Notes under the pieces: generated by a model
Told to the model about the DNA's origin: nothing
Seen by the model: only the letters and a program-made list of their open reading frames with translations
Database searches by the model: none
Translations under genes and position numbers: made by a program
Source: a virus
Direction: 5' to 3' (one strand)
DNA length: 40,954 nucleotides
UHGV virus genome: UHGV-0187710
Shown here: piece after piece, positions 6,282-8,648 of the stretch
Position numbering within the stretch: position 1 is the first letter of the stretch
Layout: every line of letters begins with the position of its first letter

Positions 6282-6337
6282 ATAAATTCCTTATTAACTG
6301 ATGATCGAAGAGGTATCAGTGAATTTTTTGTTGCGGA

Positions 6338-6709
6338 TCACTGAGCCGCTTTAAGCTTTCCGTCCACCGCGCCGGTGATGCCGAAGAGTTGCCCCTGATC
6401 CTCCTGGAGGATGGTGAGCTTCCCGCCTTTGTTGACCCACATTGGTGTTTCGGTGGTGTCTTCTTCAGAGACTTTGCCGCGCGGCGTTGGTGTGCTGTAT
6501 TTCAGCTTGTGCTTGATCTTGACGCGTTTCTCTTCGACAGAGTTACCCATGCGCTCAAAATCAAAGGTGAGAACTACCTGGCCTTTGTTACCGTTGTTCA
6601 GAACGCCGAGCGCAGTGGTATTAAGCGCTCCTGCTATTTTGTTCATGAACACTCCGGCATCCAGTTCGCTCAGAAAGTCGGGTACTACGGTCGTGCGGTC
6701 ATTACTCAT
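6338..6709 (-). CDS. hypothetical phage early protein, first gene of the leftward block
   Basis: start taken at internal ATG 6709 (MSNDRTTVVPDFLSELD...); the longer track ORF to 6796 begins with an implausible Cys/Trp-rich extension. Confidence 0.6.
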   Translation of the reverse strand: MSNDRTTVVPDFLSELDAGVFMNKIAGALNTTALGVLNNGNKGQVVLTFDFERMGNSVEEKRVKIKHKLKYSTPTPRGKVSEEDTTETPMWVNKGGKLTILQEDQGQLFGITGAVDGKLKAAQ

Positions 6710-7523
6710 GGTTTTACCCTCGTTAAGGCGGCTGCCACCGCCGTGTTTTCTCCATACACAACAGAGAAGGGCACCTGCAATTGTTGGCGACTGCAATCGC
6801 TATCCTCTTGCCCGGGTGGATTGGGTTATGAGCCCGTCACACGGTGATACCCTTTTCTGTTGCGTAAAAAGGGCGGTACCGAGGTAGAACATTATCTTCG
6901 TCCCCCTTGCATAAGGTTGAAGACCCTGGTACCGCCAAGACTACACACAGCAATACTGGAACTACGGTTATCACGGTCCTAAGCGTGATTTGGTTGTGGT
7001 GGCCGGTACTACGATATTCCGGCATGGGTTGATTATCAGTGACGCACCCTTTCGGGACACTACCTCACGGTTTAGCGCATCAGCCTGCGCATTCACCACA
7101 ACGAAGAGAGCACTGCCGGTGTTCGAATCGAACGAACCTTTTCCCTGCCCAACCCTCCCAACTGAATGGGACTGTCTGGAATCGAACCAGCACTTATGCC
7201 TTGCTCGTCAATGCTCTCGTCGTTGTGCCCTGAAAAAGGCTGGCGGTGACCGGACAAGTGGGAAAACACCGGGCCGCCAGAACAGGGAAGTACTTGTTAT
7301 TGCTTTGGCCTGCTTTTAACCACATCAGGCGCGGTGGTAAGCCATTTGCGAATCATCCGGTTATTCATATGCCACCGGCGGCTACTTCGTGGGCGTCCTG
7401 CCTGTTCGCTGTTGATGAGTTGAATATACTTGTGAGTAATTTTTGTGTAAATACCTTTTGGTATATTTTTATTTACTTTTATAGCAACTAATTGCTTTTA
7501 ATTGGATTTTAATTAAGCAGGTG

Positions 7524-7759
7524 ATGGGTGTTATGCTCAAAAAAACACCAGGTGGCTTGGTATAGAACGTGATGAACTGGAAGAAGACCGTGCGGCATTC
7601 ATCGCTGGTGAAATTGGCGGTGCAGTTTTCGAGTTGATAATCAACGGTGTGGTGATAAGTCGAGATGCGATTGTACATAGCTTGGAGACTAAGCGTCGCG
7701 CGGTTGGAAATGTGATTCACAAAGGAGTGTTGCGGGATGCTGCTATGGTGAGAAAATAA
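7524..7759 (+). pseudogene. small cargo ORF next to cI, interrupted at an A7 homopolymer (needs -1 slippage or one extra A); function unknown
   Basis: ATG 7524/7533 opens a 13-codon frame that stops at 7563; the -1 frame is open from 7517 to the TAA at 7757 and reads as plausible protein (ELEEDRAAFIAGEIGGAVFELIINGVVISRDAIVHSLETKRRAVGNVIHKGVLRDAAMVRK); A7 run at 7539..7545; a terminator follows the stop. Confidence 0.3.
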
Positions 7760-7760
7760 T

Positions 7761-7790
7761 ATTTAACCCGGCGCTTGCGCCGGGTTAAAT
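7761..7790. terminator. bidirectional rho-independent terminator shared by the small plus-strand ORF and cI
   Basis: perfect 14-bp inverted repeat atttaacccggcgc / gcgccgggttaaat around a 2-nt centre, T-rich on the plus side (gttattttct) and A-rich upstream (T-rich on the minus strand). Confidence 0.6.
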
Positions 7791-7838
7791 GTTATTTTCT
7801 AGAAGATGTTAAGTCTGTTTCAAATTCTAACACCAAAA

Positions 7839-8549
7839 TTACAATTTGTTGTAAGCTATTGATTCGTGTAGTAATGCTTTACCCATAATGTACAATTGAT
7901 CCTGGTTTTCTTCTGTTATGTACCAGTCTTTGTACACCGGGTTATCGGATAAAACTGCAAGTTGCAAGCCCTGCATCTGCAAGCGCTTCACATGGAAGTG
8001 CTGTCCGAATACAAACGCATAAACACCATCAACCTTGAAGTTTCTTACCGAAACATCAAAAAACAACCTGTCTCCAGACTGTATAGTTGGACACATGCTG
8101 TCGCCATCGACAGTCATCACTTTTACGTCTTCCTGAGAACGATTTCCGAAAAGTGAACGAGCGTGCTCGGTGGTGAATTCAATGGCGTGTAGAACCTCAA
8201 CAAATTCAGAGAGCATAAAACATCCAGGACCAGCACTCACAGTAAGGTCGAGAACTTCTACACGATAATTGTCGGCTTTGTGAGTGGGTACATCAACATC
8301 CATTTTTGAAGTTGGACTAAGACCATCCATCCATCCCCGGCTGATTTTCAAAGCATCCTCGATCTGCCGAGCAGCCTGCTCCCCAATATTCCGCTTATTA
8401 GGTTTACCAGCAGGGTAAAGCATCCGAGAAACAACAGTCGGATCAAGTCCTGCCTTTTCAGCAAACTCTCTTTGGGTCTTAAAGCGAGTTACTAACTCCT
8501 GAAGTTTGAGGCGTCGTAACTCGAAGATCTTAGGCGTTTCCGTTTTCAT
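7839..8549 (-). CDS. cI: CI-type prophage repressor (HTH N-terminus, LexA/S24 autocleavage C-terminus)
   Basis: N-terminal HTH-like region (FAEKAGLDPTVVSRML); Ala-Gly cleavage site (VSAGPG), Ser motif GDSM and Lys in HVKRL; divergent from a cro-like gene. Confidence 0.9.
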   Translation of the reverse strand: MKTETPKIFELRRLKLQELVTRFKTQREFAEKAGLDPTVVSRMLYPAGKPNKRNIGEQAARQIEDALKISRGWMDGLSPTSKMDVDVPTHKADNYRVEVLDLTVSAGPGCFMLSEFVEVLHAIEFTTEHARSLFGNRSQEDVKVMTVDGDSMCPTIQSGDRLFFDVSVRNFKVDGVYAFVFGQHFHVKRLQMQGLQLAVLSDNPVYKDWYITEENQDQLYIMGKALLHESIAYNKL

Positions 8550-8648
8550 AATTTCATCTTACTTAAATCTACCTTGAGGTAAATGACTTGTGGGTATTGA
8601 CTTGTGTTTACTTGGGGGTATATTTGCTTTTTAAGCACAGGAGGCGTG
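8550..8648. promoter_or_regulatory. cI/cro intergenic switch region with putative rightward promoter and operator-like repeats
   Basis: TTGACT (8597..8602), 16 nt, TATATT (8619..8624), then AGGAGG and the cro ATG; direct repeats TGACTTGTG at 8584..8592 and 8598..8606; imperfect 18-bp palindrome ATCTACCTTGAGGTAAAT at 8567..8584. Confidence 0.5.

What the first reader, a model, noticed from the sequence alone, without database searches (positions are those of the whole stretch)
6710..7440. Roughly 0.7 kb with no convincing protein-coding frame between the leftward early genes and the cI-adjacent region, rich in hairpins and repeats
All ORFs here are short or compositionally implausible, yet the DNA is structured. 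A 9-bp inverted repeat ggcggtacc / ggtaccgcc (6872..6880 and 6928..6936) is present. Two hairpins about 55 bp apart share the loop AATCGAA (gttcg-aatcgaa-cgaac at 7121..7137 and ctgg-aatcgaa-ccag at 7176..7190). A GC-rich stem ctggcgg ... ccgccag lies near 7240..7280. The region could be a long leader holding the leftward early promoter/operator and nut-like antitermination elements, a prophage-encoded small RNA, or the remains of deleted genes.
Basis: seen in the sequence. Interest (0 to 1): 0.38.

Follow-up and report, generated by a model that had tools for sequence, protein, structure and literature searches.

The report
Unannotated tRNA-like RNA cassette in prophage leader
The "empty" 0.7 kb next to the prophage repressor gene is the leader of the leftward early operon and is filled with conserved folded RNA modules, including a non-decoding tRNA look-alike that sits where a related phage carries a real tRNA; the same modules occur unannotated in hundreds of phages (phage lambda has the first module plus a degenerate look-alike) and their function is unknown.

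Summary
All belong to conserved RNA structures on the minus strand, downstream of a pL-like promoter (7451-7423).

Map, read 5'->3' on the minus strand:
- T1, hairpin plus U-run: 7281-7232
- D1, a 133-nt cloverleaf with a ~22-bp closing stem and two T-arm-like hairpins: 7229-7097
- A tRNA-shaped "core" (7-bp acceptor stem, D-arm, variable insert, 5-bp T-stem, ACCA): 7100-6991
- Trailer hairpin: 6989-6970
- D1', a second long-stem element: 6865-6755
- The ribosome-binding site of the first early gene

Compensatory base changes support D1 and the core. In Salmonella phage SPN9TCW a genuine tRNA-Arg occupies the core's slot between homologous flanks.

Rfam 15, ARAGORN, record annotations and the literature searches gave no name for any module. 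The core's 25-mer is identical in prophages from Enterobacterales to Burkholderiales.

Best reading: a phage tRNA-gene cassette whose tRNA has become a non-decoding tRNA mimic, probably released by tRNA-processing enzymes. The structure is well supported. Processing is inferred and the function is unknown. It is not a nut or put site, not a known sRNA, and not gene debris.

The parts
7423..7451 (-). pL-like promoter: -35 TTTACA at 7451-7446, -10 TATATT at 7428-7423. The operator-like 11-mer 7428-7438 is repeated at 8586-8596 beside the cI/cro promoters.
7232..7281 (-). T1: GC-rich hairpin (CUGGCGG...CCGCCAG) followed by CCUUUUUC, directly abutting D1. Terminator-like. Conserved in the window's lineage.
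   Evidence: z -2.9
7097..7229 (-). D1: a 133-nt cloverleaf-like element. It has a closing stem of about 22 bp with bulges (CACAACGACGAGAGCAUUGACG / CCGGCAGUGCUCUCUUCGUUGUG) and three hairpins. Conserved single strands GCAAGGCAUAA and GGUUGGGCAGGGAAAAG link them.
   Evidence: 16 of 36 pairs with compensatory changes; z -5.2
7176..7190 (-). D1 hairpin A: T-arm-like, CUGG-UUCGAUU-CCAG.
   Evidence: pairs 41-55 and 42-54 compensatory in 8 and 17 of 32 sequences
7156..7171 (-). D1 hairpin B: UCCCA-UUCAGU-UGGGA. The stem covaries strongly; the loop is variable.
   Evidence: pairs 60-76 to 64-72
7121..7137 (-). D1 hairpin C: T-arm-like, GUUCG-UUCGAUU-CGAAC. It lies one nucleotide from the 3' strand of the closing stem, as a tRNA T-arm lies next to the acceptor stem.
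   Evidence: pairs 95-111 and 97-109 compensatory
6991..7100 (-). tRNA-shaped core.
- Acceptor-like stem UGUGGUG (7100-7094) / CACCACA (7001-6995)
- Linker AAU
- D-arm GCGCA-GGCUGA-UGCGC (7090-7075)
- Variable insert (7074-7024)
- T-arm-like GCCGG-AAUAUCGUAGUA-CCGGC (7023-7002), abutting the acceptor 3' strand
- A + CCA (6994-6991)

Loop 1 GCUG can pair with loop 2 UAGU (CAGC in most homologues).
   Evidence: 9 pairs changed on both sides; 0 of 500 shuffles; the MFE is this cloverleaf
6970..6989 (-). Trailer hairpin AUCACGCUUAGGACCGUGAU. The same hairpin follows the CCA end of tRNA-Arg in SPN9TCW.
6866..6936 (-). T2: long hairpin closed by GGCGGUACC/GGUACCGCC, then CUUUUU. Intrinsic-terminator-like. 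Homologous in SPN9TCW and many loci.
   Evidence: weak DicF-terminator-like hit; z -3.5
6755..6865 (-). D1': a second long-stem element (ACGCAACAGAAAAGGGUAUCACC / GGUGCCCUUCUCUGUUGUGU) enclosing two hairpins and the conserved string GACGGGCUCAUAACCCAAUCCACCCGGGC.
   Evidence: z -5.3; 43 distinct homologues; stem variants CAACACACGAGAGCA/UGCUCUCCUGUGUUG and AAACAGAGAAGAGCA/UGUUCUUCUCUGUUU
6707..6742 (-). Hairpin GGCGGUGGCAGCCGCC (6742-6727), a GAGGG Shine-Dalgarno sequence, and the ATG (6709-6707) of the first early-left gene (123 aa, no Pfam family).

Best explanation
The region 7451-6707 (minus strand) is the untranslated leader of the repressor-controlled leftward early operon. It is assembled from conserved RNA modules.

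Its centre (7229-6866) is a phage tRNA-gene cassette with four parts:
- a structured 5' leader, D1
- a slot for a tRNA
- a trailer hairpin
- a terminator, T2

In this prophage the slot holds a tRNA-derived RNA of about 110 nt that cannot decode. It keeps a 7-bp acceptor stem stacked on a 5-bp T-stem, a D-arm and an ACCA tail. It has no anticodon arm. The usual D-loop/T-loop contact is replaced by Watson-Crick loop-loop pairing (GCUG:CAGC).

Inferred mechanism: RNA polymerase starting at pL reads through T1. The nascent RNA folds into D1 and the core. Host tRNA-maturation enzymes then release the core as a stable tRNA mimic: RNase P at the 5' end of the acceptor stem, and RNase E plus exonucleases at the 3' end, trimming to CCA. 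The long D1 and D1' stems are possibly cut by RNase III. Release of the core would also separate the upstream leader from the downstream early mRNA.

What the released mimic binds is unknown. The invariance of its stems and loops across bacterial orders points to a conserved host tRNA-handling component.

Shown: the structures, their conservation, the strand, and the equivalence of the slot to a tRNA. Inferred: transcription from pL, processing, and stability. Unknown: the target.
For: 1. Strand and transcription. The promoter and operator-like repeat are on the minus strand. All flanking genes are on the minus strand. The T-loop sequence UUCGAUU reads correctly only on the minus strand. Many G.U pairs in homologues would be A.C mismatches on the other strand.

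2. Core structure. In 77 distinct homologues, 94.3% of cells pair. Nine pairs show changes on both sides. 0 of 500 shuffles reach any of the five measures, and slid controls collapse to 26-54% pairing. Hairpin variants include GCGUA/UACGU, GCGAA/UUCGC, GCCAA/UUGGC and GCAGG/CCUGC, GCCAG/CUGGC, GCUGG/CCAGC, GCCGA/UCGGC. The loop-loop pair goes U-A to U.G (L221) to C-G (L241). The window's own variant has UAGU, which gives two G.U pairs.

3. D1 structure. 16 of 36 predicted pairs carry compensatory changes.

4. tRNA slot.
- In SPN9TCW, D1 is about 93% identical up to GUUGUGG. A real tRNA-Arg(UCU) then replaces the core. Similarity resumes at the CCA end, followed by the same trailer hairpin and a T2-like hairpin with U-run.
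- In L233 the slot holds a 124-nt sequence scoring 45.9 bits against the Rfam tRNA model (cut-off 29). It has acceptor UGUGUUG/CAGCACA and canonical D- and T-arms but no anticodon loop.
- L235, L201 and L236 hold further intermediates with canonical T-arms and the same acceptor sequence.

5. The window's core folds on its own into the cloverleaf with a free ACCA tail.

6. Copies lie among tRNA genes in lytic phages and in Burkholderiales prophages.

7. Conservation. The exact 25-mer occurs in more than 120 viral contigs and in 50 species-representative genomes.
Against: - There are no expression or processing data. Every step after folding is inference.
- The sequences were retrieved with exact-match patterns, so variation is under-sampled and lineages are not independent.
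- The loop-loop pairing has only one observed double change.
- An encoded NCCA after the acceptor stem is present in only 18 of 140 distinct cores, so a tRNA-like 3' end is not a family-wide feature.
- The last three nucleotides of the D1 stem (GUG) are also the first nucleotides of the acceptor stem, so the two helices compete. RNase P access would need D1 to open at its base.
- The core alone has a modest folding z-score of -2.2.
- T1 may stop most transcription, so expression could be low without an antiterminator. I did not identify one.
Confidence: 0.5

Rival explanations
1. Trans-acting decoy. The tRNA mimic, with or without tRNA-type processing, works by titrating a host or defence protein that recognises the tRNA acceptor/T-arm or elbow. 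Candidates include tRNA-targeting abortive-infection toxins, CCA-modifying enzymes, SmpB/EF-Tu, and tRNA-modification enzymes. This is less a rival to the structural reading than a specific proposal for the function of the product.
For: - The stems and loops are invariant across phage families and bacterial orders: the exact 25-mer is found in Enterobacterales, Aeromonas, Burkholderiales and Lysobacterales.
- There is no anticodon arm, but the acceptor and T-stem stack is kept.
- D1 carries two T-loops next to conserved GG-containing strands, which would allow elbow mimicry.
- Some relatives carry a tmRNA-like tag module beside the core.
Against: - No partner was identified.
- No defence or anti-defence gene association was tested.
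- The acceptor stem lacks the G3.U70 alanine identity pair, so it is not a tmRNA-type tRNA-like domain.
- The variable insert differs in sequence and ranges from 6 to 162 nt.
Confidence: 0.2
2. Cis-acting leader. The modules act only in cis. They would control termination at T1 or T2, shield the long untranslated leader from Rho and RNases, or gate translation of the first gene, as the RNase III-sensitive stem in the phage lambda N leader does.
For: - The position is in operon leaders: the pL leader here, and the late leader in lambda and HK620.
- In L184, L165, L106 and L111 the core sits at the top of an extended 20-bp stem that ends 10-15 nt before a ribosome-binding site. This arrangement is like the lambda N leader stem GGCUUUGGGGUGUGUG...CACACACCACCAAAGC (the 5' arm of the lambda stem is, the 3' arm is from my own recollection of the lambda sequence).
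- GUUGUG can pair either with the 5' strand of D1 or with the 3' strand of the acceptor stem, which gives a possible switch.
- D1 and D1' are long duplexes of RNase III-substrate type.
Against: - In the window the core is separated from the first gene by a terminator and by D1'.
- The same modules occur beside tRNAs in lytic phages, with no downstream gene to regulate.
- The SPN9TCW cassette lies on the opposite strand between two structural genes; its leader contains a promoter-like TTGACA hexamer read by eye, not scanned.
- No ligand-pocket-like conserved junction is evident.
Confidence: 0.17
3. Decaying tRNA genes. The region is a string of tRNA pseudogenes and fragments left by recombination, with no present function.
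For: - tRNA-derived sequence: T-arms, an acceptor stem and a D-arm.
- ARAGORN and Rfam do not call a tRNA.
- Lambda carries a visibly degenerate core.
Against: - Compensatory changes maintain every helix.
- There is exact sequence conservation across distant hosts.
- The derived loops (GGCUGA and AGAUCAGCA) are themselves conserved and complementary, which decay would not produce.
Confidence: 0.05
4. DNA-level element. The conserved blocks would be recombination linkers at module boundaries, or an attachment or target site for integrases or homing enzymes, rather than RNA.
For: - High nucleotide identity in unrelated phages.
- Cassette-like swaps with sharp boundaries.
- CACAAC-type short repeats flank the modules.
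Against: - G.U-tolerant covariation is specific to one strand.
- The orientation matches local transcription in the loci where flanking genes or tRNAs were checked.
- No integrase or endonuclease is consistently adjacent; this was not tested systematically.
Confidence: 0.05
5. Protein-coding. One of the short ORFs is a real gene: for example 7377-7306 (minus strand, 23 codons), or the 109-aa (6990-7319) and 81-aa (7246-7491) ORFs on the plus strand.
For: The ORFs exist. Relatives have a real gene inserted nearby.
Against: - No Pfam match.
- Annotators of about 1,800 E. coli genomes and of the phage records place no conserved CDS over the modules.
- The substitution pattern follows base pairing, not codons.
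Confidence: 0.03

Closest known systems
Phage-encoded tRNA genes at the start of lambdoid late operons and in tRNA clusters of lytic phages
   Same: - Same genomic niches: after pR'/tR', beside tRNAs in T1-like and N4-like phages, and inside tRNA arrays in Burkholderiales prophages. PMC8022706 describes tRNAs at the 5' end of the late operon of phage L and Sf6.
- Same acceptor/D/T architecture.
- Interchangeable with a real tRNA-Arg in SPN9TCW.
   Different: - No anticodon arm.
- T-loop of 9-12 nt instead of 7.
- D-loop and T-loop joined by Watson-Crick pairs.
- A 6-162-nt variable insert.
- Not detected by ARAGORN or by the Rfam tRNA model.
tmRNA and 'tRNA-like-domain-only' phage RNAs (for example mycobacteriophage DS6A, listed in PMC4131195)
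   Same: A tRNA-like domain lacking an anticodon, with a large insertion where the anticodon arm would be. Some relatives carry a tmRNA-like tag module next to the core.
   Different: - The window has no tag reading frame.
- The acceptor stem has U3-A70 rather than G3.U70.
- It has a true D-stem.
- ARAGORN and Rfam tmRNA models give no hit.
- The tag module can occur without the core.
GOLLD and ROOL large non-coding RNAs of prophages (own knowledge; structures in bioRxiv 10.1101/2024.12.08.627333)
   Same: Structured, function-unknown RNAs carried by phages. They are often next to tRNAs or contain them, with variable inserts inside a conserved scaffold.
   Different: No sequence or model similarity: Rfam gave no hit at E<=10. 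The hosts differ (Proteobacteria rather than mainly Firmicutes). These modules are much smaller, at 110-135 nt.
Phage lambda N-leader RNase III stem, and nut/put antitermination sites (own knowledge of the lambda and HK022 literature)
   Same: Position in the pL leader. In some relatives the core is embedded in an extended stem just upstream of the first gene's ribosome-binding site, like the lambda N leader.
   Different: - No boxA/boxB seen by inspection of the transcribed strand.
- HK022 lacks the modules.
- boxA or put-like elements coexist with the core as separate units.
- The interior of the lambda N-leader stem is unrelated in sequence.
Interdigitated double T-loop modules (T-box stem I distal region, RNase P S-domain, L1 stalk) and the T-large motif (own knowledge)
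   Same: D1 carries two T-loops in one compact domain with conserved purine-rich strands beside them.
   Different: Here the T-loops cap hairpins rather than lying in internal loops. No structural or binding test was possible. There is no Rfam match.

Membership tests
tRNA (Rfam RF00005 / ARAGORN) | 7-bp acceptor stem directly stacked on a 5-bp T-stem | tested here: met
   UGUGGUG/CACCACA followed without a spacer by GCCGG...CCGGC. The pairs covary and the MFE fold shows the arrangement.
tRNA (Rfam RF00005 / ARAGORN) | D-arm two or three nucleotides after the acceptor strand | tested here: met
   The AAU linker is followed by GCGCA-GGCUGA-UGCGC. Compensatory variants appear and the pair counts.
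tRNA (Rfam RF00005 / ARAGORN) | Anticodon arm with a 7-nt loop and an anticodon | tested here: not met
   This position holds a 51-nt insert in the window and 6-162 nt in homologues, with no conserved sequence.
tRNA (Rfam RF00005 / ARAGORN) | Canonical 7-nt T-loop (UUCRANN) and detection by tRNA models | tested here: not met
   The core's T-loop is AAUAUCGUAGUA (AGAUCAGCA in most copies). ARAGORN finds no genes. There is no RF00005 hit at E<=10.
tmRNA | Tag reading frame (mRNA-like domain) | tested here: not met
   No match to the tag-module motifs anywhere in the window. ARAGORN finds no tmRNA.
tmRNA | G3.U70 alanine identity pair in the acceptor stem | tested here: not met
   Position 3:70 is U-A in the 7-bp register, or G-C in the 6-bp register.
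lambda-type nut site | boxA (CGCUCUUA / UGCUCUUUAACAA) followed by a boxB hairpin on the transcribed strand | tested here: not met
   By inspection of the sequence, not a formal scan, there is no boxA/boxB on the minus strand of 7416-6710. The UGCUCUCUU in the 3' strand of D1 is base-paired and is replaced by unrelated sequences in homologues. A GCCCUGAAAAAGGC string exists only on the plus strand at 7229-7242.
HK022-type put RNA | Sequence or structure homology to putL/putR | tested here: not met
   The HK022 genome has no match to any module at up to 6 substitutions.
Known Rfam sRNAs and large RNAs (DicF, IsrK, STnc100, AgvB, AsxR, C4, GOLLD, ROOL, Y RNA-like and others) | Covariance-model match | tested here: not met
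   No hit at gathering score in the whole window. At E<=10 there were only six chance-level hits, and the DicF hit (16.6 bits against a cut-off of 48) is just the T2 hairpin.
Rho-independent terminator (T1, T2) | GC-rich hairpin immediately followed by a U-run | tested here: met
   In T2, GGUACCGCC is followed by CUUUUU. In T1, CCGCCAG is followed by CCUUUUUC. Termination activity itself is not testable here.
RNase P / tRNA-type processing substrate | Cleavage at the 5' end of the acceptor stem and a mature CCA 3' end | not testable with these tools
   Only indirect support: the boundaries of the tRNA-Arg/core swap fall at the tRNA's first nucleotide and at its CCA.

The most novel reading that the evidence does not exclude
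D1 and the core define a widespread, previously unnamed class of phage non-coding RNA: a non-decoding tRNA mimic with its own structured leader. It has been kept almost letter-for-letter from Enterobacterales to Burkholderiales phages because it engages a universally conserved tRNA-handling machine. It would act either as a counter-defence decoy against tRNA-targeting immunity or as a partner of the equally unannotated phage tmRNA-like tag modules found beside it in HK620-, T1- and N4-like phages.
Probability: 0.25. Interest if true: 0.85.

Novelty: new variant of a known kind. Interest (0 to 1): 0.62.

Why it matters
Phage lambda and its relatives are among the best-studied genomes in biology. 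Even so, this analysis indicates that their operon leaders carry conserved, covariation-supported RNA structures that no database names: about 1,800 of 5,426 complete E. coli genomes match part of this region, and lambda's own late leader carries a related copy.

If the tRNA mimic is a processed, stable RNA, it adds a new player to the interplay between phages and the host's tRNA and translation machinery. That interplay is now central to anti-phage defence and counter-defence. The mimic would also explain why tRNA genes and these elements share the same genomic slots.

Practically, the modules give annotators a way to label hundreds of "empty" intergenic regions. They also give experimentalists a short, well-defined RNA with clear mutational tests, namely the compensatory pairs and the loop-loop contact.

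Tried and rejected
- **Rfam and ARAGORN.** Rfam at gathering score and at E<=10, and ARAGORN, found nothing relevant.
- **Literature.** Searches for the conserved 17-20-mers, for tRNA-like or T-loop phage RNAs, for phage tmRNA and for the tag peptides gave no description. The Pas sRNA preprint and the phage L paper concern other elements.
- **HK022 put hypothesis.** Rejected, because HK022 has no copy.
- **"D1 always follows a terminator".** Dropped. Only 14 of 98 distinct D1 copies have a hairpin plus T-run directly upstream. Most have a short non-terminator hairpin instead.
- **"Encoded CCA is a family feature".** Dropped: 18 of 140.
- **tmRNA topology.** The idea was that two D1 copies flanking the tag module pair with each other to give a tmRNA topology. 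It was rejected because the distal stem bases covary within each D1, not between them.
- **tRNA-like partner for the tag module.** I searched for a T-arm followed by a strand complementary to the module's 5' end and then NCCA. Nothing consistent was found.
- **boxA reading of UGCUCUUU in D1.** Rejected as a general feature, because other D1 stems have unrelated sequences.
- **Self-cleaving ribozyme or riboswitch.** No matching core motifs and no Rfam hit.
- **One failed call.** One search failed on a frame error and was repeated.
Full report
**1. Observation**

I read window 6300-7900 on both strands.
- the inverted repeat 6872-6880 / 6928-6936
- the two hairpins with loop AATCGAA at 7121-7137 and 7176-7190
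- the GC-rich stem 7241-7247 / 7275-7281

The stretch has only short ORFs, none with a Pfam match. A Peptidase_S24 repressor gene lies at 7839-8549 on the minus strand. Leftward genes begin at 6709. ARAGORN finds no tRNA or tmRNA. Rfam 15 finds nothing at curated thresholds, and only chance-level hits at E<=10.

**2. Strand and transcription**

Read on the minus strand, the two 'AATCGAA' loops are UUCGAUU, the canonical T-loop of tRNAs. A sigma-70-like promoter scoring 10 of 12 lies on the minus strand at 7451-7423. An 11-mer inside it (7428-7438) recurs at 8586-8596 next to the cI/cro promoters, as expected for shared operators. The region is therefore the leader of the repressor-controlled leftward operon. 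Transcription itself is inferred, not shown.

**3. Anatomy** (minus strand, 5' to 3')

- **T1 (7281-7232).** A GC-rich hairpin followed by CCUUUUUC.
- **D1 (7229-7097).** A closing stem of about 22 bp encloses three hairpins. The first and third are T-arm-like: CUGG-UUCGAUU-CCAG and GUUCG-UUCGAUU-CGAAC.
- **Core (7100-6991).** Described in section 5.
- **Trailer hairpin (6989-6970).**
- **T2 (6936-6866).**
- **D1' (6865-6755).** A second long-stem element.
- **Start of the first gene.** A small hairpin, a GAGGG Shine-Dalgarno sequence and the ATG at 6709.

Folding z-scores against dinucleotide shuffles:

| Element | z-score |
|---|---|
| D1 | -5.2 |
| D1' | -5.3 |
| T2 | -3.5 |
| T1 | -2.9 |
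| Core | -2.2 |

**4. Homologues**

BLAST against phage records and E. coli genomes showed the region to be a mosaic of blocks shared with very different phages. 1,779 of 5,426 complete E. coli genomes match some part of it. Over the modules, none of the listed records annotates anything other than a ClpX-type zinc-finger gene or hypothetical proteins. The zinc-finger gene lies in a 0.46-kb segment that relatives carry between window positions 7339 and 7348 and that the window lacks.

- the 5' block of the core
- the 3' block of the core
- a D1-specific 16-mer

The contexts are:
- downstream of pL, to the left of the repressor gene (window, mEp460, Stx2a phages)
- between qut and the late terminator in HK620
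- next to tRNA genes in a T1-like and an N4-like lytic phage
- in SPN9TCW, between terminase and portal genes, fused to tRNA-Arg

Phage lambda itself carries a D1-type stem-loop immediately after tR' (44777-44863). It is followed by a degenerate core whose closing helix is GUGCUG/CAGCAC instead of GUGGUG/CACCAC, a compensatory difference.

**5. The core is tRNA-shaped**

Its consensus is:
- GUGGUG (extended on the 5' side by U or GUU)
- AAU
- GCGCA-GGCUGA-UGCGC
- a variable insert of 6-162 nt (median 74)
- GCCGG-AGAUCAGCA-CCGGC
- CACCAC(A)

This topology is an acceptor stem, a D-arm, an insert where the anticodon arm would be, and a T-arm with a 5-bp stem that abuts the 3' acceptor strand. The window's copy folds by minimum free energy into exactly this cloverleaf with a free ACCA tail.

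I built an alignment of 77 distinct copies with the insert collapsed. On it:
- 94.3% of cells pair.
- Nine pairs show changes on both sides.
- None of 500 column shuffles reaches the observed values.
- Sliding the partners drops pairing to 26-54%.

Loci retrieved on the 3' block alone show D-arm variants GCGUA/UACGU, GCGAA/UUCGC and GCCAA/UUGGC. Loci retrieved on the 5' block show T-stem variants GCAGG/CCUGC, GCCAG/CUGGC, GCUGG/CCAGC and GCCGA/UCGGC, plus many G.U pairs.

The two loops are complementary (GCUG with CAGC). In one search this helix varies only by C-to-U changes, that is G.U pairs; the window's own UAGU is such a case. In another lineage the pair runs U-A, then U.G (L221), then C-G (L241). 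That is one true compensatory event for the loop-loop contact.

**6. The slot is a tRNA slot**

In SPN9TCW the sequence is about 93% identical to the window through D1 up to GUUGUGG. A genuine tRNA-Arg(UCU) follows. Similarity resumes at its CCA end with the same trailer hairpin and a T2-like hairpin with U-run.

Among 57 distinct copies of this D1 subtype, the following unit always starts GUGGUG, GUGGCA, GUGUUG or GUGAUG. It can be any of the following:
- the standard core
- core variants with other D- and T-stems
- shortened forms
- real tRNAs
- intermediates

The L233 intermediate scores 45.9 bits on the Rfam tRNA model (cut-off 29). It has canonical D- and T-arms and acceptor UGUGUUG/CAGCACA, but it has a tetraloop in place of an anticodon loop and a long insert. 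L235 has a canonical T-arm followed by CAUCACA-A-CCA. This continuum is the main reason I call the core tRNA-derived rather than merely tRNA-shaped.

**7. D1 and D1'**

For 32 diverse D1 copies, RNAalifold predicts the closing stem and the three hairpins. 16 of 36 pairs carry compensatory changes. The linking strands GCAAGGCAUAA and GGUUGGGCA..GAAAAG are nearly invariant.

D1-type stem-loops with other inserts precede most cores: 111 of 140 by a duplex-energy criterion. Only 12 contain T-arm-like hairpins.

D1' has 43 distinct homologues, with clearly compensatory stem variants and a conserved interior.

Only 14 of 98 distinct D1 copies are directly preceded by a terminator-like hairpin plus T-run, so that association is lineage-specific.

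**8. Distribution**

The exact 25-mer GTGGTGAATGCGCAGGCTGATGCGC occurs in 50 of the species-representative genomes:
- many Enterobacterales
- Aeromonas, Marinobacterium, a Moraxellaceae MAG and a Lysobacterales MAG
- several Janthinobacterium, plus Massilia, Undibacterium and Xenophilus
- single Geobacteraceae (MAG) and Martelella contigs

In the Burkholderiales copies the core lies between tRNA genes or tRNA-like units. Such letter-perfect conservation, loops included, suggests either very recent spread or a conserved interaction partner. The variation in flanks and inserts argues that it is not only recent spread.

**9. Interpretation**

I regard the following as shown:
- The region is non-coding leader.
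- It consists of conserved RNA structures on the minus strand.
- The central unit is homologous to a tRNA-gene cassette.
- The unit in the tRNA slot is a non-decoding tRNA derivative.

I infer the following without data:
- The core is released by tRNA-maturation enzymes as a stable RNA.
- Processing also resets the 5' end of the downstream mRNA.
- The long D1 and D1' duplexes are RNase III substrates.

The biological role is unknown. The main candidates are a decoy for a tRNA-binding host or defence factor, or a purely cis-acting leader structure.

Points against over-reading:
- An encoded NCCA is found in only 18 of 140 cores.
- D1 and the acceptor stem compete for three nucleotides.
- The sampling was by exact-match patterns.
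- Related sequences are not independent.

**10. Known families**

The core fails the defining tests for all of the following:
- tRNA: no anticodon arm, no canonical T-loop, no model hit
- tmRNA: no tag frame, no G3.U70
- nut and put sites
- every Rfam family

It works like a tRNA-like structure, and it occupies the same niche as phage tRNAs. By association with tRNAs it recalls GOLLD and ROOL, but it is unrelated to them. The literature searches found no description. The library lacks most subscription-journal papers, so prior description cannot be excluded.

**11. Side observation**

In HK620-, T1-, N4- and lambda-like relatives, but not in the window, the D1-core unit is preceded by a module that strongly resembles the mRNA-like domain of tmRNA.
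- It encodes ten-residue tags: ANDDVVLMAA, ANEEMYLAVA, ANDEQFLAVA, ANDDLMLMAA and others. The E. coli tag, from my own knowledge, is ANDENYALAA.
- The tags show synonymous variation.
- The stop codon lies in a hairpin loop.
- The module is present in 350 E. coli genomes with no annotation in any listed record.
- The Rfam permuted-tmRNA model gives it weak hits.
- It can occur without the core.
- I could not find its tRNA-like partner.

**12. Verdict**

This is a real, structured and widely conserved feature. I rate it a new variant of a known kind (tRNA-like RNA of phages), with interest 0.62. The structure is solid, the niche and conservation are striking, and the function is open.

Noticed in passing
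L004 (HK620) about 985-1100; L007 (IME11) about 1000-1100; L006, L011, L020, L025, L029, L032, L045, L048, L049, L071, L114, L130, L359-L460. Not in the window.: A tmRNA-like mRNA-like domain lies upstream of D1-core. It has a conserved UUUUCG..GCGACUUUGCGG..UUUUUAGAAACUGAyCACAAAGAUAAAU leader and then a 10-codon tag ORF: ANDDVVLMAA (22 distinct contexts), ANEEMYLAVA (22), ANDEQFLAVA (16), ANDDLMLMAA (14) and others. The ORFs show synonymous variation. There are more than 90 distinct viral contexts and 350 E. coli genomes, with no annotation in any listed record. Rfam tmRNA_permuted gives 33 bits at L007 903-1051. No tRNA-like partner was found, and no paper mentions these tags.
   Followed up: partly
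L192 (phage lambda) 44777-44950: Lambda's late leader, directly after tR', has a D1-type stem-loop (CACAACAGGUAAGAGCAUU...AGUGCUCUUUCCGUUGUG). A degenerate core follows, closed by GUUGUGCUG/CAGCACAAC. The record has no annotation there.
   Followed up: partly
L184, L165, L106, L111, L339: In these pL-type leaders the core sits on top of an extended stem of about 20 bp, for example AAGUGGCUUUGGGGUGUGGUG / CACCACACCACCAAAGCCACUU. The stem ends 10-15 nt before a ribosome-binding site and lies downstream of a boxA (L184) or a put-like sequence. The arrangement resembles the RNase III-sensitive stem of the lambda N leader.
   Followed up: partly
L001 3012-3475, versus window 7339/7348: Relatives (E. 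coli FAM21845, Nissle 1917 and others) carry an extra 0.46-kb segment with a ClpX C4-type zinc-finger protein gene between the pL region and T1. The window lacks it cleanly.
   Followed up: partly
window 7440-7838: An AT-rich 0.4-kb segment lies between the pL-like promoter and the end of cI. It contains a 41-codon plus-strand ORF (7634-7759) and a perfect 24-nt inverted repeat at 7751-7800 that looks like a bidirectional terminator. It may be a small moron or the cI terminator region.
   Followed up: no
L310, L331-L335, L340, L345, L351 (Massilia, Janthinobacterium, Undibacterium); L349; L324; L321: The core's exact 25-mer is present outside the Enterobacterales, embedded in arrays of tRNAs and of tRNA-like units with large insertions. 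D1-like stems of unrelated sequence precede it.
   Followed up: partly
window 7377-7306 (minus strand): A 23-codon ORF (MNNRMIRKWLTTAPDVVKSRPKQ) lies in the leader between the promoter and T1. I did not assess whether it is translated or conserved as a peptide.
   Followed up: no
L193, L231, L262, L285: Close relatives of the window's cassette carry a shortened core of about 55 nt. It lacks the D-arm, and its T-loop reads AGAUAAGCA. This suggests repeated reduction of the tRNA-like unit.
   Followed up: no
window 7229-7242 (plus strand): GCCCTGAAAAAGGC resembles the lambda boxB hairpin, but it is on the non-transcribed strand. It is the complement of the T1 U-run and the start of D1, and is probably coincidental.
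   Followed up: no
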